A stretch of 64,000 bases of DNA from Octopus vulgaris (Eukaryota): NCBI GenBank assembly GCA_951406725.2, contig OX597830.1, positions 55,738,001-55,802,000 on the forward strand, written 5' to 3'. Of this stretch, positions 1,738 through 62,177 are shown in pieces. Both the position numbers and the translations under genes were made by a program. The notes below the pieces were generated by a model. That model saw only the letters and a list, made by a program, of their open reading frames with translations. It made no database searches and was not told the origin of the DNA. The stretch's first letter is position 1, and each line of letters begins with the position of its first letter.

Positions 1738-1788
<51 letters not shown>

Positions 1789-2319
1789 GGTTCTCATGGT
1801 TTCTAATCTTAACTGATTGGAAGTGTTATCATGTACATTGTTTTGTCTTGGTATAAAAGATGGGCTACAGCAAATATTCTGCTCAATACCACAGATTTGC
1901 TTGTCAGTTGTTTGACCTTAACCAGTTGAGCATGTCCCTTAGTGTCTGATGATATGTGCATCTCTGATCACGAGCAGAATAGTGGGGGAGCTTCATAGCC
2001 ATGTGTTGAGAGGGATTCTTTGGGGTTTGAATAATTCACCTCTGGAAACATGGGTGGTTCTTTCAACATCCTTAAACAACCCTTATTCAGGGACGTTTTT
2101 GAGCGGGATGGGCTACTCAACCTGAAGAAATTTCTAACTGGGCCCCACCTGCAAGGTCATGTGCTGTTTATCTTGATATGAGATCACCATGTCGTGCACA
2201 TATGGTTGTGATGCATGTGCCTGGTGTACCCTTATCAGACGGGTAGTCATGATGGGTATATTGGGCTTCGTATATTTTACCCCAGTGTCACTTTGATGGC
2301 ATGAACTGCTCTCTCACTC
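1789..2319 (+). mobile_element. ~530-bp non-coding interspersed repeat flanked by (AAT)n, copy 1
   Basis: Near-identical to 34584-35131, 35415-35850, 40566-41096(-), 54219-54708(-). Confidence 0.85.
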
Positions 2320-2349
2320 AATAATAATAATAATAATAATGATGATGAT

Positions 2350-2544: not shown

Positions 2545-3620
2545 TCTTTTTATTCTTTTATTAACCACAAGGGCTTATATAAAACAACATAAAATGACAT
2601 GACACAAACATAAACGACGACACAAGACAATACAGTGGATTTTCGAATCGAGTAAACATTATAAAAAAACAATGGAAAATTAAACAAAATAAAATTCCCA
2701 ATAGGGGAAGGCGTTTTAAGGTCCTCATGGAAAAATCCACACGAGCCACGGGTGCCTGATCAACAGGGCAAGATCCCTTCTTTTATTTCTTCACAGGTGT
2801 ACACTCGGAACTGGTCTTTCACACTGGCCATTCTACCAACGTTCACCCACCTTTCAACAAACTTGCTACAAGGCAACACTTCCCTCTCCACCCTCAACTT
2901 CCTTTTCAAAGGAAACTTTAAAAAGTTGATGAGAGCTTAACCAAAGAGGAAAGTGCCTGACTTTAGCCCTTTCAGACGATCCACCATTCTACCTCTTTCG
3001 CTACAGCCACCAGACAAATAAAAATTGCCTGCCCCACCCGGCCAAAGGAAGGCAGCGGGGTAATCTTTTCTTTTTTTATTTACCTCAAAAGGTTTACATT
3101 AAGAAAAACATTGTGGACAGTTCAGGACAAAACAAAGAATGCGTGTGTACCTGTATCAGTGTCTGCTGCGAGGGTTTTGCGTGTAAACAAAGAAAAAAAA
3201 ACAAATTCAACAACTTGTATTCCTTAATAAAGAGGAGACTTTCAAGGGCTGCTCATGGAAAAACCCCATAAAAAACCATGGGCACTCTGTCTTTTGGGAC
3301 AGGTACCTTCTTTTTTTTCTTTCCTTCTCTGAAACCACAGGCGTATGCTCAGGGCAGACCCGTTCACACGCACCATTCTCACCCCTTTCATCCACCTTAC
3401 AGCAAACTGGCCAGAAGACTAGACTTTCGTCTCTATCCCTATTTTCCTTTTCATGTGAAACTTGAAGTCGATTAAGGATTGGCCAAAGAGAAAAGTGTTT
3501 GTCTTCATCCCCTTCAATCTTATCCACCTCAAAACTTCGCCATGGCCACTATGCATATAAAGACAGCCTTTCCTTCTGGTTAAAGGAAGGCGGCAGGGCG
3601 ATCTTCACGATAGATTCAGT
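2545..3620 (-). mobile_element. Degenerate 3' part of a Tx1/L1-like LINE
   Basis: Decayed minus-strand coding sequence ending in an A-rich 3' UTR; Cys-bearing C-terminal region (CERVCPEH); family assigned by resemblance only. Confidence 0.5.
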
Positions 3621-4020
3621 TGACAAACAGAGAAAAAAGATGACTAAAAGTTATTTAAAACCGGAAACGGAGGCTCTAATCCGTACCAAGAGCAAGCACT
3701 AAGAACAAACTAGGTATTCTAATACCTTGTGAGTAAGTTCCGATAGTAATTAAAATTAGTCATTCCAAGTATAGAGTTTATACACAGTGTTGTTGAATGG
3801 AGGGTTTTTATTTTTAAAGTGACCTAAAGGTAGGTCTTTACTTCTTGGTGATCTTTACTTCTTACAGCCGCTTCAATTGATTTAATTAAAAATTCATACA
3901 TTAAATTTGCATTTATGTGACATGGGCATAATTTCATCAGGGTAAAAAAATGTATATCTTGAGATGTTATATGAGAGCCTATCAGTTCATTTCAGCAGAC
4001 TAATATGCTCATCAGTTCAT

Positions 4021-4207
4021 TCTGCTATAGCCTCAGGCTGACGTAAGCCTTGCGAGTAGATTTGGTAGACGGAAACTAAAAGAAGCCCGTCGTATATATA
4101 CGTGCAAGCGTGTGTGTGTATGTGTGTGTGTGCGCGCGCAGGTGTATGTGTGTGTGTGTTTGATTGTGTGTCTGTCCCCCACCACCGTCGCTTGACAACC
4201 GATGCTG
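4021..4207 (+). mobile_element. SINE A fragment
   Basis: Matches 836-990. Confidence 0.8.
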
Positions 4208-4282
4208 ATATACCCGCCAGCTTTCATCAGGTGTCTTGGGGAAATTTCGAACCTGGGTTCTCATTCCTAAGGTATTTTTCGA

Positions 4283-4341
<59 letters not shown>

Positions 4342-4447
4342 GGTCACTGTTTGGAATCGAACTCCGAATCTTGGGGCTTGTAGCCTGCGCTCTTAACGAC
4401 TACGCCATATGCCCGTGCACTACGGTTCGATTCCAAGCAGTGACCTG
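4203..4447 (-). mobile_element. tRNA-headed, (AAT)n-containing, hammerhead-bearing element (3' truncated)
   Basis: Minus strand: tRNA-like head 4414-4342 (TGGCGTAGTCG, GTTCGATTCC), then (AAT)n, then GACAC-CTGATGA; 21-bp inverted copy at 4425-4445. Confidence 0.7.
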
Positions 4448-4552
4448 AAGAAGAAGAAGAAGAAGAAGAAGAAGAAGAAGAAGAAGAAGAAGAAGAAGAA
4501 GAAGAAGAAGAAGAAGAAGAAGAAGAAGAAGAAGAAGAAGAAGAAGAAGAAG

Positions 4553-5416
4553 ATGGTCAGGCCTGTGTGGGATGAAAGATTTCAAAGATAAAGCACTGTA
4601 CAAGCAATTGAAAACGAATGAAACTGAAAGTAGGTGGGTAAAGAAAAGAATGCATGGACAATTTCATACGGATGTTGAAGATAAGACAAATAGAGAAAAA
4701 AGATGAAACGGAGGCTCTAATCCGTGCCAAGAGCAAGCACTAAGAACAAACTACATAAAATACAGAATTGACAACACATCAGAAAGTGATAAGTGCAGAA
4801 TCTGTGGACAAAATAGTGAAACAGTATGGCATATTAGCAGTCAATGTACGCCACTAGCCCAGAAAGAATATAAGAGACGCCACGACAATATAGCAAGACT
4901 TGTCCATTGGACTTGAGCAAAAAATTGGTACGACCACAAACCCGAAGGCATCATCGAAAATGATAATGCAAAGATCCTATGGGATTTTATGATTCAATGC
5001 GACCATGAGAAAGAGAATAGGAAGCCGGACATAGTCTTAATTGAGAAAGAAAGCAAACTATGCTGGATCATAGATATAGCATGCTCAGCTGACAACAAGG
5101 TATGCGATAAGGAGGAAAGAAAAGTCGATAGATGTGACAGGTTAGATTGGTAGGTTAAGCAGTTGTGTTCGATGAAAAAGGTGGTAGTAGTACCAATAAT
5201 TGTCGGAGCCCTAGGAACAATGAGTAAGAATCTTAAGAAGTACATGGAACTAATAGGGGCTGCAATAACGGTGGAGCACTTGTAGAAAACAGCACTGCCT
5301 GGAACCGCTCAAATACTCCGGAAGGTTCTCGAAAAATGAGAGGTGTTACCTTAGTTCACTGGTAATGAACAGCTGACACCGTAGTACATCTCCAGCATTA
5401 GAAGCTGTGCAAAGGC
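4553..5416 (+). pseudogene. R4/Dong-like RLE LINE 3' fragment (CCHC knuckle and restriction-like endonuclease)
   Basis: Frameshifted KCRICGQNSETVWHISSQC, KRRHDNIARLVHW, ILWDF, RKPDIVLIEK..IIDIAC; flanked by (GAA)n and (AAC/AAT)n. Confidence 0.85.
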
Positions 5417-5452
5417 AACAACAACAAGAACAACAACAACAACAATAATAAC

Positions 5453-5523
<71 letters not shown>

Positions 5524-5540
5524 TAATAATAATAACAACA

Positions 5541-5711
5541 ATGAAAAATACCTCAGGAAAGAGAACCCAGGTTCGAAATTTCCGCAAGACGCCTTCTGCA
5601 GAAGGCTGGAGAGTATATCAGCCGAAACGTTGTGTTAACAACAAAGATAAGAACAAATATCCGTCAAATGTAAATAATGTACACAATTTCTCGTCTCTTA
5701 AATATAGAACT
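5541..5711 (+). mobile_element. Hammerhead-bearing tail of the 4203/54770 family
   Basis: CTGCAGA-A-GGCTG..CAGCC-GAAACGTT-GTGTT; homologous to 54925-55104. Confidence 0.7.
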
Positions 5712-13983: not shown

Positions 13984-16740
13984 TCAGGTGTAGTTTCGGC
14001 GGATTTCGGAAAGCATGAGGGCCTTAAAGGATGCAGTGTCATGGCAGTCAACAACTGACGCAGGCAGTTTATTCCATGCTTCAGCAACTCTGAGCGTGAA
14101 AAAATGTTTCCGAAAGTCATGGGAGCTGTGTTGTTTTCTGACTTTGTAGGCATGTCCACGTGTGTTAGACACATGGAGATCAAAAAGGTGTTCAGTGTTG
14201 TTGTTGGTGAGGTGGTTGATAACCTTGTGGGTGTTTACCAAGTCCGTCGCCAGACGCCGGAGCTTCAGTGAATCCATGCCCAGGGAAACAAGGCGCTCAG
14301 AATATGGTAGGTGTCTGATGGAGGGTATGCGTTTGGTTGCACGTCTCTGGACAGATTCCAGGAGGTCAATGTTCTGAGCAAGATAGGGATTCCAAACTGA
14401 TGATGCGAATTCCAAGTGTGGTCGTACCATAGCTGTATACAGTTTTAAATAGATGGCTGGAGAGCGGCTAACAAAAGTCTTGCTGAGTGATGCCAAGACA
14501 CCCTCGGCCTTCTTGACAATTTTAGAGATATGCTTTGTCCAACGCAAATCACTGCTGACAGTGATGCCTAGGTCACGCTCGCAAGAGGATTTCTTGATAT
14601 CAGTGTTGTGGAGGGAGTATGTGGACGCAGGGTTTTTTCTCCCAAAATGCATGGTGGTACACTTGTCCACAGCCAGTTTCAGTTGCCAGTCTGTGATCCA
14701 TTGCTGCATTGTGTCTAGGTCTGATTGCAGGAAAGAGTTGTAGACATCAGGATCAGTCCTCTTGATTTCAAGGTACAGCTTGATGTCGTCTGCATATTTC
14801 AATACTGTGGCATTCTTTAAATTGGCATCTATGTCATTAATGTATGCCACAAACAGGAGGGGACCAAGGACAGATCCCTGTGGTACACCCGATGACATCT
14901 CATATGGTGTAGAGTGCTGTCCTAGAACTGTGACTACCTCCTTTCGGCTGAGGATGAAGGATTTCAACCAGTTAAAAAGGTCATCCCCCACACCCATTGC
15001 AGAGAGTTTCACCATAAGCCTTTTGTGTGGCACAGAGTTGAAAGCCTTAGCAAACTCAAGGTAGACAACATCCACCCATGAGCCACTGTCAGTGATCTGA
15101 GTAATGTCCTCAAGGAACTCGACAAGCTGGTCACTGCAGCTGGAGCTAGGGACAAATCCATATTGTGAGGGTCGGATGAGACTGTGAGAGCTCCAGAAGT
15201 TCCAGAGTGTTTCTCTGACACACGATTCCATCAGTTTTGCAATACAGCTAGTGAGACTGACTGGGCGATAGTTGACAGGTGATGTGCGGTCACCCTTTTT
15301 GAACAGAGGAATGACACTGGCAGTTTTCCACTGCTCCGGAGTAGCACCATTGTTGAGACAGTACTGGAAGAAAATAGAAAGCTGGTGTAAAAGGAAGTGC
15401 CTGCCACGTTTGAGAAGCAGGTATGTAACTCCATCGAGACCAGGGGAGGCATAGTTGCGCTTATTTTGAAGGTGACGTCGCAGCATTGCAGATGTAAATT
15501 CCATAGTTGTTATGGAGTTTGCTGTTAGTGATGGTGAAGATGGTACATTTTGACTTTCAACAGTGAATATGTTTGCATAGCACTCGGCAATGAGTTCTGC
15601 GCATTCCTTGGGGTCGTCAGTGATCTGGTTTGTGTGAGGGTTGCGAAGAGGGCCCACTGGAGAGTGAGGTCTCTGCCTTGAATGCACATATTTCCAGAAA
15701 ACCTTGCTGTCAGGATTGGCTGCTATGCACTGTTCAAATTCAAGCACTGCATTTTTTGTCACTTGCTTGAGATGGTTGGAGGATTTATTCCGCTTCTTCC
15801 GGTTGGTGTCTGATTTATGCAACTTGTATTCCTGTTCAGCAGTCCGACGTTCCTTCCTGGCAAGTCGGACCGCTGAAGTTTCCCAAATTGCCCTTTTGGG
15901 GCGGTTCTTCTTTTTTTGTTTACGTGGCACTGATGCTGCACATGCTGCCCATATTGAGTCCAGGATACTCTGGAGTATAGTATTCACATCTCCAGAGTTG
16001 TAGAATTCACGCCAGTTTGGGTGCTGTAGTTCAGTGTGGTACAGGTTCCAATCTGCTCTCTTCCAATCGAAGGAAGCAGATTGGAGATGGTTCAGGTGTT
16101 TGTTGCCCGCAAGAGCCAGATTGGCGATGATCATAGCATGATCAGAGTCACCTAGAGGTTCCTCCGTAGTGCAATTGATAACCGCTTCAGGAGTTGTGGT
16201 GAAGAGCAGGTCCAAGGTGTTGTCGCCTCTTGTTGGAGAGGTGACTACTTGTGACCAGTTTGAGTCCAGCACAAGCTCAACAAAATCGTTTGCACTCTGT
16301 GGCCAATGGAAGGTTTCCCAATCGATCTCAGGATGATTGAAATCGCCTGCAATAAACACATAAGTGGCTGTTTTCCTGGCAGCAGCTCGGAGGATGTTGC
16401 AAAGCTGTGTCCTGATGGTAATTTGGGGGACGATAAACAACGCCAAGCAGGAGTGTTGACATGGTCATACGTACGTCACAGAAAAAACTTCTTCTTGTGA
16501 TTCGTTCAAATCGGCACAAGGAATTACCAAAAAATTTGAACGAACGTAGACCATCACACCACCACCACGGCGGTTAGTGCGGTCCTTACGGAAGAGGTTG
16601 TACCCCGTAATGTTGAAAACCCCATCACAGAGTAAGGAATGCGCCCATGTTTCCGTGACAGTGATGAAGTCAGGGTCAATACTTCTGCATTAAGGACAAC
16701 AATTTGTACCCTGCTCGCAGTTTATGATGGTGTGCAGAGG
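13984..16740 (-). pseudogene. LINE ORF2, AP endonuclease plus reverse transcriptase; N-terminus frameshifted, 820-aa open part 13984-16446
   Basis: TVTETW, GGGV, VYRPP (different frame), GDFN, LDL, SDH; NYRPVSL, GVPQGSVLGP, YADD, RDLG; motif A reads YLEFAKAFN instead of YLDFxKAFD. Confidence 0.92.
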
Positions 16741-16758: not shown

Positions 16759-17976
16759 TTAGTTTCCCTGAGTTGCTGTAGTCTTTTTAGTTATTGTGGG
16801 TAGAGAGCACTCAGACCAGCTGGTATCTCTCTTCCACGTTTCATCACTCTTGACAAATCTCCAGATTTGTCCATCTTCCCGAAGACTGAAGCTTTCCTGT
16901 AGAGCTGAGTTCCTATTCAGGGAAGCCGCTACACGTAGCTTCGGACGTACATCGGACGGTAAGCCTGGGTGTGTTCGGAAGGTGGTCCGATTTTCACGCC
17001 CAGCTTTAACTGAGGCCAGATGGTAAGAGGTTGCCTCAGTGTGGTCCGAAAAAGACAGCTTGATGAGCCTAGGTTTTGGGCCAGGTCGTCCAAGGCGGAT
17101 AGCACCCGTTGGGGGAACGCAGCCTAGGTCTTTGGCTGAGTTGGCAGCAAATGCCTGAAGATCAGCCATGTCTTCTGGCACCCCAATGGCAATGACTTCA
17201 TGGGTAGCAGAATCCGCGGTCTTAAATGCGACAAGAGGTACAGGTACAGGGAGGTTCTTTAGCAGAGCATTCCGATAAGACCCCTCATTGTGGAGTCCAA
17301 CCTGAATGGTTGCTTTTATTCCTGCTACTTCCCCTCTTAAAGCACAGATCGATTGTTGCAGTTCTGCAAGAACCGCACTGGTCAATTGGTGTTGTTGTTG
17401 TTGCTGCTGCTGCTCTGGTTGTGGTTGATTTTGTTGTTGCTGCTGTTGTTGTTGATGTTGTTGTTGCTGCTGCTCTGGTTGTGGTTGATTTTGTTGTTGC
17501 TGCTGTTGTTGTTGTTGCTGCTGCTCTGGTTGTGGTTGATTTTGTTGTTGCTGCTGTTGTTGTTGTTGCTGCTGCTGCTGCTCTAGCTGTGGTTGATTTT
17601 GTTGTTGCTGCTGTTGCTGTTCCGCCTCCTCCACGGGAGTGGAAGGGGGAGACACAATCGTCGGTTGTGGAGGCACGCAGGCCTGACACTGAAAAGTCCA
17701 AGATTTAAGCTGAACCATCTTCCAGAGTCTATCCATCATAGCATTATGATGGCTCTTTTTTTGGCCTGGGATCTTCTGAAAGTCCGTGGCACATTGGAGG
17801 CAGACAGAGATGAGGCATGTCCCACATTCGACCCAGCGATTACGGAACGTATTTTCGGGTTCCGTACAGATGTGGCAGGTGTGATTTTCTGGGCAGTGTT
17901 CTATTTTGGAGCAGCGACCAGTCTTATCGCACGCCGCTATGGATTCCACCATGGCGATTCTGTTGCTCCTGGTCAT
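16759..17976 (-). CDS. LINE ORF1p: PHD-like finger, polyQ repeats, coiled coil, RRM-like domain
   Basis: CHIC..CGTC..CLQC..CQAC; IAIGVPE..IRLGRPGPKPRLIKLSF; open 405 aa directly upstream of ORF2. Confidence 0.85.
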   Translation of the reverse strand: MTRSNRIAMVESIAACDKTGRCSKIEHCPENHTCHICTEPENTFRNRWVECGTCLISVCLQCATDFQKIPGQKKSHHNAMMDRLWKMVQLKSWTFQCQACVPPQPTIVSPPSTPVEEAEQQQQQQQNQPQLEQQQQQQQQQQQQQNQPQPEQQQQQQQQQQQNQPQPEQQQQQHQQQQQQQQNQPQPEQQQQQQQHQLTSAVLAELQQSICALRGEVAGIKATIQVGLHNEGSYRNALLKNLPVPVPLVAFKTADSATHEVIAIGVPEDMADLQAFAANSAKDLGCVPPTGAIRLGRPGPKPRLIKLSFSDHTEATSYHLASVKAGRENRTTFRTHPGLPSDVRPKLRVAASLNRNSALQESFSLREDGQIWRFVKSDETWKRDTSWSECSLPTITKKTTATQGN

Positions 17977-18649
17977 CCGTAGAGACAGAAAATGTAAACA
18001 ACAATACGATAAAAGTAAAATATAAAATATTTGTTTTTGATTCGTTCTTTTTTTGTGTATATTCCTTTTGTTCTTAAATATTGCGTGTGTATATACACAT
18101 GTTTCGTTCTTTTTTGTGTATATTCCTTTTTTTCTTAAATATTGCGTGTGTATACATGAAAGGATTTGTGCGTATGTTTAGTGTAGACACGGAGAAAGTT
18201 TGTAAACAGAAATGAAATCAGTGATTTTTTGATTTTTTTTTGCAGTGTAGTCCGTCACATTAAATAGTGTGATTTATTTTCACTCTGCACGTATATATAT
18301 GTGTGCTACAAGTATCTATGTATGTATGTATGTCACTGCTTTATAAATTTTGGACGTACTTACTGTCGTTCAACGTTTTCTTTTACCCTCAACTACACGT
18401 GGTGAATTCTTCCATTGTAGATCTGTGGTGGTCATCGTCGTAATATTTTCTCTTTAGTTTCCTCGCCAAATTGATTATACCCTAATCAAACCATTTGTTT
18501 GTCTACTTGTGAATGTGTCTTTGTTTTAGTAACATTGTATTTTCCTCCTTTTCCTTTTTCATTCCCATATTATATGGAACTTCGGTGGACAGCTACTCTA
18601 AGACTCCAGCTGCCAGGTCGCCATTAAACAGGATATATATATATATATA

Positions 18650-18783
18650 TACGACGGGCTTCTTTCAGTTTCTGTCTACCAAATCCACTCACAAGGCTTT
18701 GGTCGGCCCAAGGCTATGGTAGAAGACACTTGTCCAAGGTGCCACGCTATGAGACTGAACCCAGAACCATGTGGTTGGTAAGC
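18650..18783 (-). mobile_element. SINE A 5' half
   Basis: Reverse complement of ~773-908. Confidence 0.8.
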
Positions 18784-19026
18784 GTGACACAGAGTATGAC
18801 AAGGCCGGCCCTTTGAAATACAAGTACAACAGAAACAGGAAGAAAGAGTGAGAGAAAGTTGTGGTGAAAGAGTACAGCAGGGTTCACCACCACCCCCTGC
18901 AGGAGCCTTGTGAAGCTTTAGGTGTTTTCGCTCAATAAACACTCACAATGTCCGATCTGGGAATCGAAACCGCGATCCTACGACCGCGAGTCCGCTGCCC
19001 TAACCACTGGGCCATTGCGCCTCCAC
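18781..19026 (-). mobile_element. SINE B 5' portion
   Basis: Head GGCGCAATGGCCCAGTGGTTAGGGCAGCGG..TTCGATTCCC on minus. Confidence 0.85.
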
Positions 19027-19029
19027 AGC

Positions 19030-19366: not shown

Positions 19367-19760
19367 TTTTTTTTTTTTGGAAGCACTCCGTCGGTTACGA
19401 CGACGAGGGTTCCGGTTGATCCGAATCGACGGAACAGCCTGCTCGTGAAATTAACGTGTAAGTGGCTGAGCACTCCACAGACACGTGTACCCTTAACGTA
19501 GTTCTCGGGGATATTCAGCGTGACACAGAGAGTGACAAGGCCGGCCCTTTGAAATACAGGTACAACAGAAACAGGAAGTAAGAGTGAGAGAAAGTTGTGG
19601 TGAAAGAGTACAGCAGTGATCACCATCATCCCCTTCCGGAGCCTCGTGGAGCTTTAGGTGTTTTCGCTCAATAAACACTCACAACGCCCGGTCTGGGAAT
19701 CGAAACCGCGATCCTATGACCGCGAGTCCGCTGCCCTAACCACTGGGCCATTGCGCCTCC
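19367..19760 (-). mobile_element. Full-length SINE B with poly(A) tail and 11-bp TSD
   Basis: TGCTGACTTGT at 19356-19366 and 19761-19771; T-run 19366-19378. Confidence 0.92.
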
Positions 19761-28252: not shown

Positions 28253-28574
28253 TAATTTTTTTTTTTTTATGCGCCCTTTTTCAAGCCTAGCCAGGCCCAT
28301 GGGCCCGGTTTCCCGGTTTCTGTGGCGTATGTTTTCCCCCCAGCTGGACGGGATGCCAGTCCATCGCAGCTTTACTCAAGAAACAGGAAGAAAGAGTGAG
28401 TGAAAGTTGGAGCGAAAGAGTACAACAGGGGTCGCCACTACCCCCTGCCGGAGCCTCGTGGAGCTTTAGGTGTTTTCGCTCAATAAACACACACAACGCC
28501 TGGTCTGGGAATCGAAACCGCGATCCTCCGACTGCGAGTCTGCTGCCCTAACCACTGGGCCATTGCACCTCCAC
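28253..28574 (-). mobile_element. SINE B head with an alternative (V-domain-like) tail
   Basis: B head 28375-28574; tail contains CTGGACGGGATGCCAGTCCATCGCAG; T-run at 28253. Confidence 0.75.
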
Positions 28575-29442: not shown

Positions 29443-29486
29443 CTGAAGACATGCATGTTTCTGGGTCTTGCCCGTCATCAGTCCAG
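29443..29486 (-). ncRNA. Type I hammerhead ribozyme, canonical core
   Basis: CTGGA-CTGATGA-CGGG CAAGA CCCA-GAAAC-ATGCAT-GTC|TTCAG. Confidence 0.78.
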
Positions 29487-31688: not shown

Positions 31689-32530
<842 letters not shown>

Positions 32531-34552: not shown

Positions 34553-34583
34553 ATTATGATAATAATAATAATAATAATAATAA

Positions 34584-35131
34584 TGCAGTACCAGGCAGTG
34601 GCTCTCATGGCTTCTGATCTTAACTGATTGGAAGTGTTATCATGTACATTGTTTTGTCTTGGTATAAAAGATGGGCTACAGCAAATATTCTGCTCAATAC
34701 CACAGATTTGCTTATCAGTTGTTTGACCTTAACCAGTTGAGCATGTCGCTTAGTGGCTGACGATATGTGCATCTCTGATCGCGAGCAGAAGTAGTGGGAG
34801 AGCATCATAGCCATGTGTTGAGAGGGATTCTTTGGGGTTTTAAATAATTCACCTCTGGAAACATGGGTGGTTCTTTCAACATCCTTAAACAACCCTTATT
34901 CAGGGACCTTTTGAGCGGGATGGGCTACTCAACCTGAAGAAAATTCTAACTGGGCCCCACCTGCAAGGTCATGCGCTGTTTATCTTGATATGAGATCACC
35001 ATGTCACGCACATATGGTTGTGATGCATGTGCCTAGTGTACCCTTATCAGACGGGTAGTTATGATGGGTATATTGGGTTTCGTATATTTTACTCCAGTGT
35101 CACTTTGATGGCATTCACTGCTCTCTCACTC
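34584..35131 (+). mobile_element. ~530-bp (AAT)n-flanked repeat, copy 2
   Basis: Matches 1789-2319. Confidence 0.88.
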
Positions 35132-35208
<77 letters not shown>

Positions 35209-35850: not shown

Positions 35851-35860
35851 AATAATAATA

Positions 35861-36347
35861 ATTGAAAATGAGAAAGCAACCATACAATGGGATTTACCAA
35901 AACATACTAATAGAGAAATTAAGGCCAATAGGCCGGATATAGTTGTCAGAGATCATCAAGAAAAAAAATGCTTTCTAATTGATGTATCAATACCAACAGA
36001 TGACAACGTTTCTCTAAAAGAAATTGAGAAACTTTCAAAATACAAAAGCCTGAACATAGAGGTAACTCGAATGTGGAGTCTAAAAAGAGAAACAACCCCT
36101 ATTATAATAGGCGCATTAGGTATGATAAAAAAAATATTCAGACAAATACATAACAAAAACATTAGGGCTAACAAATATATATAACATACAGAAAATAGCA
36201 CTACTAAGCACCGCACACATCCTACGTAAAACACTTTCAATACAGTAAAAATAAGAGCATTGCAACAAACTACAGCACGTACCCAAGACACACAGAGCTG
36301 CGCTCGGTCGTGCAGTGAAAGCACGTGATAAAAATAAGATTACCGAA
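35861..36347 (+). pseudogene. R4/Dong-like RLE LINE 3' fragment
   Basis: TIQWD..IKANRPDIVVRD..CFLIDVSIP..EKLSKYKSL..PIIIGALG..IQKIALLSTAHILRK; (AAT)n on both sides. Confidence 0.88.
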
Positions 36348-40140: not shown

Positions 40141-40565
40141 AACTCTGTTCAGTTCAACTAATACTGTGGATATTATCCAACGATCTCGTACCCTAGGTTG
40201 AAGAATCCGTCTTGCTACAATATGCATACATACATACATACATGCATACATACATACATACACGCATACACACACATCCATCCATCCATCCATACATACA
40301 TACATACATACATACATACATACATACATACATACATACATACATACATACATACACACATCGGAGGGTGATGAGAAATCATCCCGGCAGCAGCTAGCGA
40401 AAATGCTAGAGGCATTTCGGCTTTGTTGCGCCTTGTCAGTGATGGGCAATCGCAGTCATTAGCGGGACGATTTACCGTATCCATTTGATACATGTTGTGT
40501 TTGTAATACAGAATGTGTATATGAGAATTTATCTCGGACGAAACGATCTTATTATTATCATTATT

Positions 40566-41096
40566 GAGTAAGAGAGCAGTGCATGCCACCAAAGTGACAC
40601 TGGGGTAAAATGTACGGAAGTCCAGTATACCCATCATGGCTACCTGTCTGATAAGGATACACCAGACACATTCATCACGACCATATGTGCGCGACATAAA
40701 CAGCGCATGACCTTCCAGGTGAGACCCAGTTAGAATTTTCTTCGGGTCGAGTAGCCCATCCCGCTCAAAAGGTCCCTGAATAAGGGTTGCTTAAGGATGT
40801 TGAACGAAACGACCATGTTTCCAAAGGAAAATTATCCAAACCCCCAAATTTCCTCTCAACCCATAGCTATGATGCTCCCCCACTACTTCGTGATTAGAGA
40901 TGCACATATCGTCAGCCATTAAGGGCCATGCTCAACTGGTTATGGTCAAGCAACTGACCAGAAAATCTGTGTTACTGAGCAGAATATTTGCTGTAGCCCA
41001 TCTTTTATACCAAGACAAAACAATGTACATGATAACACTTTCAATCACTTAAGATCAAAAGACATGAGAGCCACTGCCTGGTACTGCCTCAGGGCA
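40566..41096 (-). mobile_element. ~530-bp repeat, copy 4
   Basis: Reverse complement of 34584-35131; (ATT/ATC)n flanks. Confidence 0.85.
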
Positions 41097-41119
41097 TTAT
41101 CATCATCATCATCATCATC

Positions 41120-41150
<31 letters not shown>

Positions 41151-41631: not shown

Positions 41632-41975
41632 TATAAAAACTCACAGCTTATTTTGCTGAGTATGATGGAAAGTGTCAGCTGTCCACAGCCAGCAGACCAA
41701 GATGACACTTGTTTATTGATCATGCTTCAAGAACCCTGTGAAGAATTCTTGCAGTTCCAAGATTTTTGTAGGTGTTCTACCTTCACACTTGCACTAATCT
41801 TTTTCAGCCATGTTGGTAGTTGAGTGCTGATACTTCCAAGTATACCAATTACTATTGGTATCGTGTCTACTCTCTTCATTGACCACAACCTTCGTATTTC
41901 CCACTTCAAATCGTCATAGTTGTTTATTTTTTCTTCTTTTACATTGATCCTGTTGTCACCGGGGCATGCTCTGCC
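41632..41975 (-). mobile_element. RLE LINE 3' end (same family as 1561-1712)
   Basis: ACPGDNRINVKEEKINNYDDLKWEIRRLW..PIVIGILG..EHLQKS. Confidence 0.82.
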
Positions 41976-41994
41976 GATTATCGTATTATTATTA

Positions 41995-42400: not shown

Positions 42401-42872
42401 TTTACTTTTAACTGCATGTTTGTTACAATCATTTGTTGAGACACACCCAGCGTCCTAGGGCGAGTGAAAGATAAGAGATATTACAATATGGCTGAAAGCT
42501 TGGGGGGGGGAGTGGCGGGGCTGTAGCGAAATATTTTCATGTAATGCAACACAGACATTTAAATGGATAGGTTTTTTTCCAATGATGTGGGCGGTACTTG
42601 TCAGCACAATCTTTTGGATTTCTCTGAGACATGGTTCTCCTGGGATGTTTTCTGGATGTTTCTGACATCCTTTTCTTATCATACCTAGGGCCCCCACAAT
42701 AACAGGAACAGTTCTCACTTTAAGATACCACATCTTTTGTATTTCAATTTCCAGGTCCTTATATTTACTGAATTTGTCAAATTCCTTTACATATATATTT
42801 TTATCAGTGGGAATACTTATATCTATTAGTCTACAAGTATTTGCCTCTGTCTTTAATGACTATGTCTGATCG
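42400..42872 (-). mobile_element. RLE LINE 3' end, further family
   Basis: RSDIVIK..CRLIDISIP..KYKDLEIEIQKMW..PVIVGALG..EIQKIVLTSTAHI. Confidence 0.82.
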
Positions 42873-43314
42873 TGACATTTTTACCTTCAACTACTAGCTC
42901 AGGGTGGTGTTCATACCAGTAAGCAAGTGGTGATGGTGGAAGGGGGCTGCGGCGGTGAGGATAATGGCAGCACTGTTACTGTTATTGTTCTCGTTGGTAA
43001 CGGTGGTGGTGGGGGGTAATGGTAGGGATAGTGGTGCTACTGTTGTTGTTATTGTTGGTTAGAAACGATGGGACGGTAATGTCGGTGAATTTTGCCAGTG
43101 CTGGTGGCGATGGTGGTGTTAGTGGTGAGGTGGGATTGCAACAAGAGCTGCGGTTGTGGTGTTACACAGGTGACGATGGGGTTAGCAGATAAAGTGTCAT
43201 TTTAATGGATTTACGCTTTTACAGCTGTTAGAAAATTAGTTTTTAATTGCGTATACGAGTGTATATATATACGTCTATAGGTGTACACGCGTGTAGCTGA
43301 GTATGCTGTGCTAC

Positions 43315-48474: not shown

Positions 48475-48798
48475 GTCACCATGATCACCGTGACCGACCA
48501 GGCTATCAGATGTTGCTGCACATCGCTGGTCACAATGCGCTTCGCATTGTTTTTAGCCTTCAAATGACTCCCCCCTCCCCGGCTGGCTAAGCGAGCAGGC
48601 TAACAGAAGAAAGAGTGAGAGAAAGTTGTTCGCGAAAGAGTACAGCAGGGATCGCCACCCCCACCCCCTGCCGGAGCCTCCTGGAGCTTTAAGCGTTTTC
48701 GCTCAATAAACACTCACAACGCCCGGTCTGGGAATCGAAACCGCGATCCTACGACCGCGCGAGTCCGCTGCCCTAACCACTGGGCCATGCGCCTCCAC
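48475..48798 (-). mobile_element. SINE B head with a third tail type
   Basis: B head 48606-48798; 48475-48605 is unrelated to the other tails. Confidence 0.7.
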
Positions 48799-49142
48799 AT
48801 GGTAGATGTATACGAGAGAAAGACCAATGTTGAGGGCGAAGAGCAATTTGTCGTCAAACAGCTGATGCACAGTTTGAGTAATTATGGACGCATTCAGTTT
48901 GGAGAATGTTAAAGGAATATTTATCTCTCTCTAGAAATGATGTAGCGTTTACGGCGGCGGCGGCGGCGGAAACTGGAGTTTCAAGATTTTCGGTAAACAG
49001 AATAACCAAAGCGTGCAGTGACCTCGTTTTTGTAACGAAGGGAATGAGCCGCGTTGCGTTTCTTCCTGAAGAGCAGCGTATCTGTAGTCCCCACTCCGAC
49101 GAATACTCATCTATTAGATTGTAGTAATAGAGGTGAATGCTA

Positions 49143-52261: not shown

Positions 52262-52302
<41 letters not shown>

Positions 52303-52304
52303 AT

Positions 52305-52800
52305 AAGTAAATAAATGGAGTTGAACGCAGATGTTATTCAAATTCTTTTACTTTCGACATATGTTTCGAAGACAACATTGGGGTTTTTTTCCAAAGCAAT
52401 AAACGGTGTAAAATAATGTAATCCTCTTATCAGGAAAGAAAGAAAACCCATCTCAACAACAAGACATTATAGCAATTTTGATGACTGCATAAATGATAAA
52501 CAGAACGCTATTAAGTATTTTAAAAAATAACCGTCAAAGGCAGACCATAGAAAGAGAAAGGGCAAAGAAATAATAAGTAGAGAACAAATAAAGGAGAAAT
52601 ATAGAGTGATATGTTGGTTGAAAAAATGTTCAAAGGCTTGGAAGTAGATTTCTCTATTGAAGTAAAGTGCAAGGTGAACTAAATGTTCAAACTATACAGA
52701 CTGGTATAAATCACTTATATGAGCTAAGGTTATGTTTCTGCCAGTGCTTACATTTGTAAGATCGCTCTATAAGTGTGTTAACAAGGTGATTCTTAGAGAA
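52305..52800 (-). mobile_element. PLE 3' end with decayed hammerhead (52351-52438)
   Basis: NHLVNTLIERSYKCKHWQKHNLSSYK*, homologous to ORF 60376-60915; CTTTC-CTGATAA-GAGGAT..GTCTTC-GAAAC-ATAT-GTC-GAAAG. Confidence 0.8.
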
Positions 52801-52898
52801 GAGAAGAGGTGATTAGTACCAAGGGGGCGGGGATAATTACACTATGCATAGTTTAAATTTAAACTATCCTCTATTATTATCTTCAATTTACCTATGTT

Positions 52899-52967
<69 letters not shown>

Positions 52968-53179
52968 ATTATATAATATAAGTAATATTTAATTCATTTA
53001 TTTATTTAAATTATTTATTTATATAGTCTGTTCAAGTGCTGTAGAAATAAAATTTTGTGGATATTTGATTCAGGGGTCGGGGTTCAGTATTTCATTTTAT
53101 TGAAGGTAAAATTACTTAACTCCACGTTCATCATATGTGTTTAATAATTCATCTCTAGACTGTAGTAGTTTTATAAATT

Positions 53180-54100
53180 ATGTTAATAAATTATGCATAA
53201 TAAACACATTTTATTCCCAATATTATAGGAGTGGAATCTACCTATTATACCCCAATTAAGGGTGTACTCTCTTTTTCTAGATTTCAATTCACATATATAT
53301 TTACTTTAGCCTGTAGACTTACCTAAATTAGGAATTTTGAAGGTCTGGTAGTGTTGGGATATTCTTTTTTTAATTTTATTAACTGTTGATCCAATATAAG
53401 CCTTATTTATAATTTTATCATTATTGTTCTTAGAGCTTACTATACATTTAAAAATTACTTGATTAATATTACAATTATTAGAGTGCTTACATTTAGTCTT
53501 ATCACAACATGAATATTTTTCTATCTGTTGATTAAGACTCCCATCACTATTGGTAATATTATGGCTAGAGCTATTATTTATTGTGCTATTATAATAATTA
53601 TTTAATTTCTCATTATTTATAAAGGAAATGATATTACCTACATTTCTCGATGTTGAATATCCCACTCTTATGGTTTTATTGGAAAATATATTTGAATAAC
53701 TGTTGTCCTTCGTAAAAACCATTTTTACTATTTTAAGTGTCTTCTTAATAATATTAGTCATCACTTGAGCCCCATACGGAATAATAAACCATATAATATC
53801 CTTCTAATTTCTATATTTTTATATTATCACTATTAGACATCATCGGTATTAAATTGTTGTTTTTAGGTATATTATATCTCTGCTTGTATAATTTACTATA
53901 TTTCTTACTATTGCTCATATTCTCATTACTAACATTACTATTATTATTGTAATCATTAATAACAACTATATTGTTTTTATCTATATTTAGTTTGTTGTAT
54001 TGTCTTTTATTATTATTCATATTTTTACTGTTAGAATTATTATTAGTTTTATTAGGATTATTTGTTGTTATTATTATTAATGTGTTCGTAGCAATTATAG
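53180..54100 (-). pseudogene. PLE fragment (linker and GIY-YIG endonuclease)
   Basis: IWFIIPYG, IRVGYST, QVIFKC..AYIGST..KKRISQH. Confidence 0.8.
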
Positions 54101-54170
<70 letters not shown>

Positions 54171-54218: not shown

Positions 54219-54708
54219 GCATGACATCAAAGTGACACTAGGGTAAAATATACGAATCCCAGTATACCCATCGTGACTACCCGTCTGATAAGGGTACACT
54301 AGGCACATGCATCACAACCATATGTGCGTGACATGGTGATCTCATATCAAGATAAGCAGCACATCACCTTGCAGGTAGGGCCCAGTTAGAATTTTCTTCG
54401 GGTCAAGTAACCCATCCCGCTCAAAAGGTCCCTGAATAAGGGTTGTTTAAGGATGTTGAACGAAACACCCATGTTTCCAGAAGTGAATTATTCAAACCCC
54501 AAAGAATACTTCTCAACACATGGCTATGATGCCCCCCACTACTTCTGCTCGTGATCAGAGATGCACATTTCGTCAGCCACTAAGGAACATGGTCAACTGG
54601 TTAAGGTCAAACAATTGACAAGCAAATCTGTGGTATTGAGCGGAATATTTGCTGTAACCCATCTTTTATACCAAGACAAAACAATGTACATGATAACACT
54701 TCCAATCA
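54219..54708 (-). mobile_element. ~530-bp repeat, copy 5
   Basis: Reverse complement of 1814-2302. Confidence 0.85.
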
Positions 54709-54725
54709 TTATTATTATTGTTGCT

Positions 54726-54757
<32 letters not shown>

Positions 54758-54769
54758 TGCTGCTATTCG

Positions 54770-54774
54770 GGTGA

Positions 54775-54857
<83 letters not shown>

Positions 54858-54859
54858 GT

Positions 54860-54924
<65 letters not shown>

Positions 54925-55104
54925 AACATCGAAAAATATCATAAGAATGAGAACCCAGGTTTGAAATTTCTCCAAGACACCTGAAGAAGGCTGGAGGGTA
55001 TATCAACCGAAACGTAGTGTTGACAACAAAGAAGAGGACAAATATCCGTCAAATGTAATAATGTGAATAATGTACATAAATCCTCATCTCTTAAATATAG
55101 AACT
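54770..55104 (+). mobile_element. tRNA/(AAT)n/hammerhead family member; HHR 54976-55021
   Basis: GTGACCTGAA-(AAT)n-AACATCGAAAAATA..GACAC-CTGAAGA-AGG..CC-GAAAC-GTA|GTGTT. Confidence 0.75.
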
Positions 55105-55107
55105 ATT

Positions 55108-55260
55108 ATTTCTCTCCTTTTTTTCTGTGTCCCTTTCCGTAGAAGAGCGTGGGCTCGAAGCGTGAAAGACTTTTTCTACTCCTGGGCGTTATATTAATAC
55201 ATCTGTTTGTTTTATACACCACCTGTCTTCGTCTTTTGCTTTTTTTTGTGAACTCTCCCT
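55108..55260 (+). mobile_element. PLE tail family E with decayed minimal HHR
   Basis: Reverse complement of 57262-57400 and 59040-59200. Confidence 0.7.
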
Positions 55261-55313
55261 ATATATATATATATATATATATATAGACATGTATGTATAT
55301 ATAAACCTATATA

Positions 55314-55333
<20 letters not shown>

Positions 55334-57199: not shown

Positions 57200-57261
<62 letters not shown>

Positions 57262-57265
<4 letters not shown>

Positions 57266-57582
57266 AGAGTTTTTACAAAAGACGAAGACAAGTGGTGTAC
57301 AAAACAAACGTTCAGGAATAGAAAAAGTCTTTTACGTTTTGAGCCTACGCTCTTCTACAGAAAGGGACACAGAAAAAAACAAGGAGAGAAACAAGGAAAG
57401 AAAAAAATGCGTGTAGTGGATAGCGATCTATCATGTCGTCTGTCCATTGTAAAGAGAAGTTTGGAGGAGCCAGGAGGGAAGGAGAAAGAGTTGAATAGAC
57501 GAAGAGCATGGTTGGTGTCATGGATGTGAGAAGGAAGAGAAGGCACTAGTGGGGCAAGGACACGGTCGAGATATTTGGAGAT
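57262..57582 (-). mobile_element. PLE RT fragment fused to family E tail
   Basis: ISKYLDRVLAPLVPSLPSHIHDTNHALRLF..LLFTMD (57582-57441), followed directly by the HHR-type tail. Confidence 0.75.
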
Positions 57583-58278: not shown

Positions 58279-58305
58279 TAAAGTAATAAAGTTAATGTCT
58301 GATCA

Positions 58306-58369
58306 TAGAGTGACCAGTAGTTTCGCCTCCACGAAGGCTGTGGCCTCGCGGGCGACTCATCAGACTCTA
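58306..58369 (-). ncRNA. Type I hammerhead ribozyme, canonical core, within inverted repeat 58282-58448
   Basis: TAGAGT-CTGATGA-GTC..GGC-GAAAC-TACTG-GTC|ACTCTA. Confidence 0.82.
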
Positions 58370-58521
58370 GTCCAAAGACCACGGGGCTACAACCTTCGTG
58401 GAGGCGAAACTACTGGTCACTCTATGATCAGACATTAACTTTATTACTCTTTAATACTTTACTGCTCTATACTTTAATTAGTTTTAATGTGTGCTTCTTT
58501 TTCGGATATATAATACATTGA

Positions 58522-58978: not shown

Positions 58979-59037
<59 letters not shown>

Positions 59038-59130
59038 ACGGGAAAGTTTACGAAAATAAACAAAAGACGAAGGCAGGTGGAGTATAAACAAATGTATTAG
59101 TATAGCGCTCAGGATTAGAAATAGAAAAAG

Positions 59131-59168
59131 TCTTTTACGTTTCGAGCCTACGCTCTTCGACAGAAAGA
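59131..59168 (-). ncRNA. Minimal hammerhead-like motif, CTGTCGA core (family E, element ~59040-59226)
   Basis: TCTTT-CTGTCGA-A-GAGC GTAG GCTC-GAAAC-GTA|AAAGA. Confidence 0.6.
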
Positions 59169-59225
59169 TACACAGAAAAAAACAAGGAGAGAAAAAAATG
59201 CGTGTAGGAGCTAACGATCTATCAT

Positions 59226-59256
<31 letters not shown>

Positions 59257-59761: not shown

Positions 59762-60088
59762 GTGTATATATGTATATATATATATGCATATATGTATGTA
59801 TATACGTATGTATGTGTGTATATATATATATATATATGTATGTGTATATATATATATGTATGTATATATGTATATATATATATATATATAAATAGATGAG
59901 TGTATTTTTACCTTGTTAACAATTAACACGGAAAAAATAAATAAATAGTTATCAGGGTAGCAAAAATCTCACAAGTAAAGATGTAACTCCTTGTTTATAA
60001 AGGTAGAAACTTCGTGTTTACGTTGAATATTTTGAATAGTATATGAATAAATAAATGGAGTTTAACGCAGGTGTAATCAAATATTTTT

Positions 60089-60174
60089 ACTTTCGACACA
60101 TGTTTCGAAAATTCCACTGATACTATTCAAAAGAATAAATGGTATAAACAATGCAATCTTCTCCTCAGGAAAGT
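60089..60174 (-). ncRNA. Type I hammerhead ribozyme in PLE pLTR
   Basis: ACTTTC-CTGAGGA-GAAGATT..AATTTTC-GAAAC-ATGT-GTC|GAAAGT. Confidence 0.85.
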
Positions 60175-60375
60175 GAAAAAAGCGAAACTCGTCGATAAGA
60201 CATTTTAGCAAAAAATGATGGATTTGTATAGCGATAGACAGAACGCTATTAATATTGTTTAAACAAACGTTATATGACATAAAGTCATAAGTAGCTAACA
60301 GAAAGAGTAGGGATACCAATAGTGAATGTTAAATATAAAGGAAATTAAAGTTTAAATTATATATAATGATAGAGA

Positions 60376-62002
60376 CTACTTATATGCACTAAATGTATGT
60401 TTTTGCCAATGCTTACATCTGTATGCTCGCTCTATAACCGTGTTTACTAGAGTATTTTTAGAAAAAATAATGAAAAATAGCTCAGAATTGCAGAGAAGAC
60501 AGAATTCCTTGCCTTTGTCATATGGTATCGAAATTGAGAGAATCAACCATTCTAAATGAAATTGTTCATTGTGGTCTTTTAAATCCAAAATCAGTTTGCT
60601 GAGACCGGTACTATTACGTTTATTTCTATCCCTAAATGTTGAATAATGGATAGAAATTATTTTAGATAACTCTAACGATGTGTTTCCAATGTAAAATCGT
60701 ACTTTATTACGAATACTGATTATACACTGGTATATAGAATTTCTAATCTTAGAGTTACTTGACGGAAACTTAATTCTATTGGAATTGACTTCAGATACAA
60801 TAACCTTGTTATTAATATTTCTAGAGGGTTGGATGGTATTGGCTAAATTAATGTTAGTATTAGTAAATGTATTAATATTTAACAGTTTGTTATTATGTGA
60901 AGAGATAATTTGCAAGAGATTTTTTTGTGTTTGAAAAACCTATCCTAACCTTATGTGAATTGATAATAGAGTAATATCTAGAATTGTTTGGAAAATTCCT
61001 AGCAATAGCTTGACGAAGCAGCAGTGGGAGATTAGATTTAATTTGTCTCCCGTAAGGAATTATTAACCAAATATTTTTACTAGTATTCATAGCGTAATTA
61101 CTTTTGAAGGTGTTATATTTACTTTTAGATCGATAATAGGGGATTAAATAAGGGTTATCTGCCTTCATTCGCTTTGTATCGGTGCGTAAGTTTTGTTTGT
61201 TATCAATAATTCTTTTACGACTAGAAATCTTATCTACATTATTGAATTTACAATTAGACTGAGCAGAATCAATGTAGAAAATTTTCTCTGTATAACCTGC
61301 TTTAATTAAGGCAGAGTTATAGAATTCAGCGTTATTATTGAAAATATCAACATTAGCAGATAATTTAGATAATCTAAATGAAATATTCTTAACTAAGTTC
61401 TTAGTAATTGCTCCAGGACGATTACTAAATTTGCTAATGTACTTAAGATTGGTCAACGGTTTACGATATGGGAAGTAAGAGTCACTGTGTAAATTAAGCG
61501 TAATATCTAAAAAGTTGGCCTTCTTCATATCGTCATCAAAAACGATTTTTAAGCCCATTCTACTGAAAAAATTAACTAAACTATTCTTAAATTTTTGTAC
61601 CTTCTGGTTGGAAACATTTTGGAGGTAAAGTAAACAATCATCACGATATAGACCTTCATAAATGTTAGGGAACTCTTCAGCCATTTCAAAAAGAATATAC
61701 ATACAGACTGAATCAGCTACCTGTGCTGAATCAGAACTTCCCATTGGTATATCGAAACTATCTGGTGTGTCTTTACGGACCCACAACTTATCATCAAATT
61801 TAATAATAGATCTTCTGGCTGGCAACACAATATTAATTTCTTCTCGGGTGAGACCAGCTTTGTTATGAGCAAGCCAAAGTGCCTTATTAAGTACTATTGG
61901 ATTGATAGATGAATAAAAATTGGAAATATCAAACTGGATAAACTTAGTACTCGTCTTATTGGTAATAGAACTAAACCAGTCAACTACTTCAAACGAATTA
62001 GT
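60376..62002 (-). pseudogene. PLE polyprotein (RT plus C-terminal GIY-YIG), frameshift near 60920
   Basis: FIQFDISNFYSSI, FDIPMGSSDSAQ, GLYRDD, NFLDITL; SIYQC..FYIGNT, CLLC..RCKH. Confidence 0.9.
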
Positions 62003-62124
62003 CCTGAGGAGAAGATTGCATTGTTTATACCATTTATTCTTTTGAATAGTATCAGTGGAATTTTCGAAACATGTGTCGAAAGTAAAAGTATTTGATTACA
62101 CCTGCGTTAAACATTTATTTATTC

Positions 62125-62177
<53 letters not shown>

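What the first reader, a model, noticed from the sequence alone, without database searches (positions are those of the whole stretch)
4203..4447. tRNA-headed element linked to a hammerhead (SINE-retrozyme hybrid)
Three copies (4203-4447 minus, 5541-5711, 54770-55104) reconstruct one layout: tRNA-like A/B-box head ending GTGACC, then (AAT)n, then AACATCGAAAAATACC, a minimal HHR (GACAC CTGA[T/A]GA..GAAACGTA GTGTT) and a tail ending TATAGAACT. This copy also has a PLE-style inverted 21-bp piece. It resembles the Pol III plus HHR design of schistosome SMalpha and would be a SINE-like parasite of PLEs rather than of LINEs. The full head is seen in only one copy.
Basis: partly seen in the sequence, partly recalled or inferred. 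Interest (0 to 1): 0.72.

Follow-up and report, generated by a model that had tools for sequence, protein, structure and literature searches.

The report
tRNA-headed Penelope parasite with hammerhead tail
A short, very common repeat in this octopus-like genome starts with a worn tRNA copy, and at both sites in this window it continues through an AAT microsatellite into a hammerhead-ribozyme end; it is likely one SINE-like element that borrows the enzyme of Penelope-type retroelements, a pairing I did not find described.

Summary
The 'inverted 21-bp piece' is the head remnant of copy 2: head', (GAA)35, an inserted R4/Dong-like LINE fragment, (AAT)n, tail 2. Copies 1 and 2 are therefore likely the two arms of one head-to-head insertion. 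Copy 3 has a collapsed inverted junction. The head has tRNA geometry (A box at 8, B box at 52; 0 of 5000 shuffles). In public contigs it is high-copy, has a sharp 5' edge, and is mostly preceded by an inverted copy of its own start, an arrangement typical of Penelope-like elements (PLEs). The hammerhead is the minimal PLE type, not the canonical SMalpha type. It is intact only in copy 3, and 88 nt past the cut site are retained. Weak point: head-tail linkage rests on two independent loci (chance about 0.01-0.02). No genome was held and the read tool skipped the tail, so linkage is untested genome-wide. Pol III transcription, cleavage and the partner PLE are untested. Verdict: probably a new variant, a tRNA-headed non-autonomous PLE derivative (0.6).

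The parts
4342..4414 (-). Left arm (copy 1): 73-nt decayed tRNA-like head; A box at about 4407-4397, B box at about 4363-4353
   Evidence: Boxes match 16 of 18 fixed letters, 0 of 5000 shuffles; anticodon-loop position 32, T-loop position 54, acceptor 5/7 pairs
4415..4423 (.). Head-to-head junction; the family's 5' edge is at 4417
   Evidence: Summed depth falls from 336,417 (bin 4410-4418) to 237 (bin 4419-4427) in run X1; loose ends read as the inverted head start
4284..4340 (-). (AAT)n spacer of the left arm
4203..4286 (-). Tail 1, truncated; 5' half of the minimal hammerhead (4235-4204)
4418..4450 (+).
4448..4552 (+). (GAA)35 tract, inferred first half of the right arm's spacer
4553..5416 (+). 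5'-truncated, broken LINE fragment with CCHC and restriction-like endonuclease motifs (R4/Dong-like; label recalled), inferred later insertion into the spacer
   Evidence: related fragments at 3579-3710, 35858-36145, 41772-41981, 42650-42918
5417..5542 (+). (AAC)n/(AAT)n tract, second half of the right arm's spacer
5538..5711 (+). Tail 2, full length, hammerhead core disrupted; (TA)n begins a few bases after it
54705..54770 (-). Copy 3, inferred left-arm remnant: last letters of a head end plus an outward-facing A-rich triplet tract; no tail found beyond it
54771..54927 (+). Copy 3: about 10 bases of head 3' end, then the (AAT)n/(AAC)n spacer
54926..55104 (+). Tail 3 with the complete minimal type I hammerhead at 54976-55021; predicted cut after 55016, 88 nt before the 3' end

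Best explanation
This is likely one non-coding retroelement of about 300 bases (worn tRNA head, AAT spacer, end piece with a minimal hammerhead) that is probably transcribed from its own tRNA-type promoter and pasted in by the enzyme of a Penelope-like element, which would explain its head-to-head inverted pairs. Shown: the order of parts at two loci, the promoter-box geometry, the high copy number and sharp 5' edge of the head, the inverted junction, and the PLE-type ribozyme anatomy. Inferred: (1) the element arose when a tRNA-derived head with an AAT tail fused, at an AAT tract, to the 3' (pLTR) end of a PLE; (2) Pol III starts near tRNA position 1 and reads through, since the sense strand has no run of four T; (3) the PLE reverse transcriptase/GIY-YIG protein recognises the pLTR-like end and primes at microsatellite nicks; (4) the inverted arm is made at the 5' end, by a U-turn of the cDNA or a second priming, or is inherited from a palindromic master; (5) the hammerhead likely acts as a recognition fold or cuts only as a trans dimer, because inserted copies keep 88 nt past the cut site and the two arms lie on opposite strands.
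For: Of 18 AAT-containing tracts in the window, 3 are followed by the tail and 2 are directly preceded by the head end; both of those 2 carry the tail (P=0.020, or 0.0074 counting two independent loci among 17). The third tail has a head remnant upstream across a LINE fragment. All 3 tails start at the same point after the tract, and the 2 complete tails end at the same point without an AAT run; this fits an internal spacer better than an AAT-targeting 3' end. Head laid on 1338, 1315, 714 and 186 contigs in 4 of the 24 listed runs. Among the shown loose-end rows at 4413-4417, rows whose consensus starts with the inverted head hold 118 of 132 contigs (X1), 142 of 142 (X5) and 79 of 94 (X8); 97 rows were not shown. 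Adjacent inverted 5' copies are a PLE feature (PMC8557442 passages) and occur here on an RT-coding element at 60040-62129 and a hammerhead element at 58282-58448. Ribozyme has the extra base after A9, a G-C first pair of stem II and a palindromic ACGU in place of helix III, the listed marks of PLE minimal hammerheads (PMC4209133). Longest sense-strand T run is 3 in all three copies (weak on its own).
Against: Linkage rests on two independent loci; one search skipped 4203-4347, so no contig tested it. AAT tracts here do collect unrelated insertions (LINE fragments, a 600-bp repeat). The inferred left arm of copy 3 has no tail. Tails 1 and 2 are no more alike (71/83) than tails 1 and 3 (73/83), so a single event is not shown by identity. 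No partner PLE with this tail is in the window. In the contigs the inverted arms start at the head's 5' end and seem mostly short (agreement 0.42-0.5 over 30 letters), unlike the 3'-coterminal inverted copies of textbook PLEs; only one joint is listed. Cloverleaf is poor (anticodon stem 2/5, T stem 1/5), and SINEBase warns that A and B boxes are only an indication.
Confidence: 0.6

Rival explanations
1. Two independent repeats: a simple tRNA-derived SINE (head plus AAT tail) moved by AAT-targeting R4/Dong LINEs, and truncated pLTR ends of a PLE that has an AAT tract in its 3' region. They meet because the SINE inserts into AAT tracts.
For: LINE fragments and other repeats sit in AAT tracts in this window; Dong-R4 is listed among recently active families in Octopus vulgaris (PMC13282606); the inverted head end abuts a GAA tract like a true 3' terminus; an earlier unchecked note reports a one-off SINE-PLE join in another genome.
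Against: Both directly attached heads fall on tail-bearing tracts (P about 0.01-0.02); no tail in the window is preceded by PLE coding or UTR sequence; it does not explain the family-wide inverted 5' junction of the head.
Confidence: 0.2
2. One PLE-derived unit, but the tRNA head is a passive capture: the propagated RNA is a longer palindromic or read-through Pol II transcript, and 5' truncation inside the inverted arm gives the variable arms.
For: The junction centre is stereotyped across contigs, with variants that look like CpG decay, as expected if inherited from one master; stems of the head are decayed; an Octopus sinensis gene model uses the tail as its first coding stretch, which suggests Pol II-type splicing from a copy.
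Against: Promoter boxes are kept (16 of 18) while stems decayed; the 5' edge falls 3 bases from tRNA position 1; in copy 3 the inverted remnant starts within a few bases of where the direct arm starts.
Confidence: 0.14
3. An SMalpha-like or retrozyme-like unit: tandem master arrays elsewhere are transcribed as multimers, self-cleave as dimers, circularise, and seed solo or inverted copies.
For: Same gross design as SMalpha (promoter then hammerhead; PMC6765202); unit size is within the retrozyme range.
Against: No head-to-tail repeat of the unit in the window; copies begin at the head and end 88 nt past the cut site, not at the cut site; the ribozyme is minimal, and such motifs cleaved poorly even as dimers.
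Confidence: 0.06

Closest known systems
PLE insertion units and non-autonomous PLE derivatives (pLTR ends with minimal hammerheads; MRC1-type elements; PMC8557442, PMC4209133)
   Same: Minimal type I hammerhead near the 3' end, sequence kept past the cut site, adjacent inverted copy, microsatellite context; pairs of minimal hammerheads 100-700 bp apart on opposite strands were already noted in Schistosoma.
   Different: Carries a full-length tRNA-derived head as its 5' end, and the inversion point is fixed at that head's start; no partner PLE identified.
Schistosome SMalpha/Sj-alpha SINE-like elements (seen through PMC6765202 and PMC6155905 passages; the original paper is not held)
   Same: Pol III-type head followed by a type I hammerhead in a short non-coding repeat.
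   Different: SMalpha has a canonical, fast ribozyme and needs tandem repeats; this has a minimal PLE-type motif, an AAT spacer and head-to-head pairs.
Animal non-LTR retrozymes (PMC7229834; bioRxiv 10.64898/2026.07.22.740005)
   Same: Short, non-coding, hammerhead-bearing, proposed to derive from pLTRs and to use PLE enzymes.
   Different: Defined as tandem repeats with a hammerhead in each unit; no tandem seen here, and the parts I read mention no tRNA head.
tRNA-derived SINEs (SINEBase, PMC3531059), including the three octopus families of Ohshima and Okada 1994 (seen only as a reference title)
   Same: tRNA-geometry head, short, interspersed, high copy.
   Different: SINEs are defined as LINE-dependent with a simple-repeat 3' tail; here the repeat is internal and the 3' part is pLTR-like. 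I could not compare sequences with the 1994 families.

Membership tests
SINE (SINEBase) | Short (<1 kb), interspersed, not tandem | tested here: met
   About 300 nt; loci 50 kb apart; contigs with up to 1.6 kb of flank beyond the head
SINE (SINEBase) | At least 100 copies | tested here: met
   Head laid on 714-1338 contigs per DNA-type run; contig counts are not copy numbers, and this covers the head only
SINE (SINEBase) | At least 60% identity to a tRNA over 60 nt | tested here: inconclusive
   Geometry and boxes fit; no Rfam or ARAGORN call; no eukaryotic tRNA set on hand; likeness to a threonine tRNA is recalled, not tested
SINE (SINEBase) | Pol III transcription | not testable with these tools
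   Only contigs, one run guessed to be RNA
SINE (SINEBase) | Dependence on a LINE partner, with a LINE-like or simple-repeat 3' end | tested here: inconclusive
   Tail has no match to LINE fragments in the window and ends without an AAT run, but the head alone ends at AAT
Non-autonomous PLE derivative | Minimal type I hammerhead near the 3' end | tested here: met
   Copy 3; broken or cut off in copies 1 and 2
Non-autonomous PLE derivative | Adjacent inverted copy at the 5' end | tested here: met
   Copies 1/2 and contig loose ends
Non-autonomous PLE derivative | 3' end homologous to an autonomous PLE of the same genome | tested here: inconclusive
   No match to the PLE-like elements in this 64-kb window; no genome held
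Non-autonomous PLE derivative | Microsatellite-biased insertion | tested here: inconclusive
   One of 2 intact 3' ends is followed by (TA)n; the other abuts another hammerhead-family repeat
Non-LTR retrozyme / SMalpha type | Head-to-tail tandem units | tested here: not met
   None in the window; the rest of the genome was not examined
Non-LTR retrozyme / SMalpha type | Canonical hammerhead with helix III | tested here: not met
   No helix III loop; no Rfam hammerhead hit
Non-LTR retrozyme / SMalpha type | Self-cleavage and circular RNA | not testable with these tools
   Needs an assay or raw RNA reads

The most novel reading that the evidence does not exclude
A true Pol III-driven SINE analogue whose partner is a Penelope-like element rather than a LINE, amplified to thousands of copies in octopuses, in which the cDNA makes a U-turn at the RNA's 5' end at each insertion. 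Its copies would then be a large natural record of how PLEs make their second strand and their inverted repeats.
Probability: 0.35. Interest if true: 0.78.

Novelty: new variant of a known kind. Interest (0 to 1): 0.58.

Why it matters
SINEs are defined as parasites of LINEs. A tRNA-headed element riding on PLE enzymes would extend the small-RNA-head strategy to another class of retroelement, and would mean that part of the large, mostly unclassified octopus 'SINE' fraction (893 of 900 recently active SINE families unclassified) has the wrong presumed partner. A short RNA with a fixed 5' start and many inverted junctions would also make two open questions testable: how PLEs form inverted repeats, and whether their hammerheads cut or only serve as a recognition fold (both called unresolved in PMC8557442).

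Tried and rejected
No whole genome is held. Contig laying covered the head only, as 4203-4347 was skipped as repeat; zero depth there is not evidence. No RNA holder is listed on record. Tail pattern: 0 hits in viral, metagenome and prokaryote collections. Head-end pattern: 0 viral, 5 metagenome and 4 prokaryote hits; they match only 21-25 bases, have no tail and no tRNA call, so they are chance. Protein searches for reading frames that span head and tail: nothing; one poly-leucine chance hit. Head against phage and plasmid DNA: only E 2-8 hits in protein genes. Rfam on the whole window: the 150 shown of 247 hits were nearly all microRNA models on microsatellites. Single-strand folds of head and hammerhead are no more stable than shuffles (z -0.09 to 0.73), as expected for a minimal motif, so neither for nor against. 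The stem counts had offset errors for acceptor and T stem; one search has the corrected acceptor count. Literature: 10 searches found no description of this element or of a tRNA-headed PLE parasite; this covers open-access text only. Repbase, Dfam and the Zenodo library of PMC13282606 could not be seen and may hold the consensus under a SINE or Penelope label. SINEBase supplements were unavailable. Rejected: a coding role for the tail (short frames only) and reading the element on the opposite strand (puts promoter boxes and ribozyme antisense).

Full report
Setting. The window is microsatellite-rich animal DNA with no assembly on hand. A translation of the tail matches the first 36 residues of an Octopus sinensis gene model at 81%, so the family is present in octopus. 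I did not identify the window's species.

Observation. Three tails are present: 4203-4286(-), 5538-5711(+) and 54926-55104(+), with identities 71/83, 73/83 and 148/171. Each starts at the same point after an AAT-rich tract, and the two complete ones end at the same point. The head at 4342-4414(-) is 73 nt. Its A box starts at position 8, its B box at 52, the anticodon loop at 32 and the T loop at 54. The boxes match 16 of 18 fixed letters, and 0 of 5000 letter shuffles do as well (box patterns recalled). The stems are decayed: acceptor 5/7, D 3/4, anticodon 2/5, T 1/5. ARAGORN and Rfam call nothing. Copy 1 breaks off in stem II, and copy 2 has a disrupted core. Copy 3 is the only strict minimal-hammerhead hit in the window, against 0 in 30 block shuffles.

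Re-reading the locus. On the + strand the sequence after the head of copy 1 runs: a head remnant with B box and head end (4418-4450), (GAA)35, a broken LINE fragment (4553-5416; CCHC and endonuclease motifs, R4/Dong label recalled), an AAC/AAT tract, tail 2, then (TA)n. Related LINE fragments elsewhere in the window also lie next to AAT tracts. The simplest reading is that the LINE entered the spacer of copy 2, so copies 1 and 2 are two arms of one head-to-head insertion. This is inference: the two tails are no closer to each other than to tail 3. At copy 3, the ten-base head remnant is preceded by the reverse complement of a head's last letters and an outward-facing triplet tract. That looks like the same junction with both heads nearly gone, but no tail was found beyond that left remnant.

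Linkage. Of 18 AAT-containing tracts, 3 carry the tail and 2 are directly preceded by the head end; both of these carry the tail. Chance is 0.020, or 0.0074 for two independent loci among 17. This is the only test of linkage I could make. The contig-laying tool skipped 4203-4347, and protein, pattern and paper searches gave no further locus with both parts.

The family beyond the window. On 4 of 24 listed runs, under three organism labels, the head was laid on 1338, 1315, 714 and 186 contigs. Summed depth in X1 drops from 336,417 to 237 between bins 4410-4418 and 4419-4427, so the 5' edge is at about 4417, three bases before tRNA position 1. Among the shown loose-end rows at 4413-4417, rows whose consensus begins with the inverted start of the head hold 118 of 132 contigs in X1, 142 of 142 in X5 and 79 of 94 in X8; 97 rows were not shown, and a row's consensus does not prove each contig. 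By eye, the consensus follows the head for about 19-23 letters in two rows (X1 behind 4417, X8 behind 4414) and about 7 in others, so arm lengths vary. Long perfect arms would probably not survive contig assembly (my inference), and only one joint is listed. The variants at the junction centre look like CpG decay of one form. The fourth run is only guessed to be RNA and shows no transcription.

The ribozyme. Copy 3 has the extra base after A9, a G-C first pair of stem II, and a self-complementary ACGU with no helix III loop. These are the marks listed for PLE minimal hammerheads, which cleaved only weakly and only as dimers (PMC4209133, passages and part 1 of 4). The element ends 88 nt past the predicted cut. 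An RT-coding element in the same window (60040-62129; RVT_1 E 0.0004, below the cut-off; RT-like atlas neighbours) also keeps 55 nt past its cut and has a 131-bp inverted piece at its 5' end, but its end is unrelated to this tail. Because the two arms lie on opposite strands, these loci cannot form a cis dimer. The motif therefore likely serves as a recognition fold or acts in trans.

Mechanism. Shown: order of parts, box geometry, high copy number of the head, inverted junction, ribozyme type. Inferred: fusion of a tRNA-derived head to a PLE 3' end at an AAT tract, Pol III read-through (longest sense T run is 3), PLE-driven priming at microsatellites, and an inverted arm made at insertion or inherited from a palindromic master. 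I give this 0.6; independent repeats meeting at AAT 0.2; passive capture without Pol III 0.14; an SMalpha-like tandem cycle 0.06.

Comparison. Adjacent inverted copies, microsatellite bias and non-autonomous derivatives are known for PLEs (PMC8557442, passages). Retrozymes are tandem and proposed to be PLE-derived (PMC7229834, passages; bioRxiv 10.64898/2026.07.22.740005, parts 1-3 of 5). SMalpha joins a Pol III promoter to a hammerhead in tandem (PMC6765202 and PMC6155905, passages). SINEs are defined as LINE-dependent (PMC3531059, Definitions section). Octopus repeat papers mention SINE and Penelope fractions but, in what I read, not this element (PMC13282606, parts 1-2 of 3 and supplement search; PMC8967140, passages). 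Passages of PMC10886601 and bioRxiv 10.1101/596502 added nothing on this. The Ferbeyre, Lunse and Albertin papers are not held, and repeat libraries could not be searched.

Verdict. The element works like a SINE at its 5' end and like a PLE pLTR at its 3' end. It is not a retrozyme by the tandem test, and membership in SINE or non-autonomous PLE families is incomplete. New variant of a known kind; interest 0.58, capped by the missing genome-wide linkage test.

Noticed in passing
P0001, P0003, P0005 (Octopus sinensis gene model): The first 36 residues translate the hammerhead tail in sense; the O. vulgaris cluster member P0004 has a different start. A copy of the element may supply a first exon to a cysteine-rich membrane-protein gene (TNF-receptor-like by eye), via a donor about 35-45 nt past the cut site.
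   Followed up: partly
window 60040-62129 (-): 5'-truncated PLE-like element: RT frame, frameshifted endonuclease-like frame, long-stem hammerhead at 60168-60095, and a 131-bp inverted 3' piece (97%) at its 5' end. A related, more decayed fragment lies at about 52266-54130 (-).
   Followed up: partly
window 58282-58448: Short hammerhead element (core 58363-58312, -) that is itself an inverted pair with matching 3' ends, between microsatellites.
   Followed up: partly
window 30631, 55106-55324, 57202-57394, 59000-59234: Another minimal-hammerhead family next to (TA)n; one copy abuts the 3' end of copy 3. Further hammerhead-like cores at 29448, 44539 and 45831.
   Followed up: no
window 4416 (loose ends): 14 contigs in X1 and 15 in X8 have a different shared 5' flank instead of the inverted head start: a subfamily or source-gene flank, unexplained.
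   Followed up: no
window 1744-2349, 34553-35161, 40549-41121, 54219-54717: A 600-bp repeat at 82-93% identity, with AAT tracts at both ends in two copies; may be a non-autonomous partner of the AAT-targeting LINEs.
   Followed up: no
window 18781-19027, 19517-19760, 28379-28574, 32146-32392, 48602-48807: A second, unrelated tRNA-like SINE family with several copies at about 90% identity.
   Followed up: no
window 13984-16464 and 16759-18177 (-): Open 826-aa endonuclease-RT frame (Pfam RVT_1, Exo_endo_phos) with an upstream 472-aa glutamine-rich frame: a young two-frame LINE.
   Followed up: no
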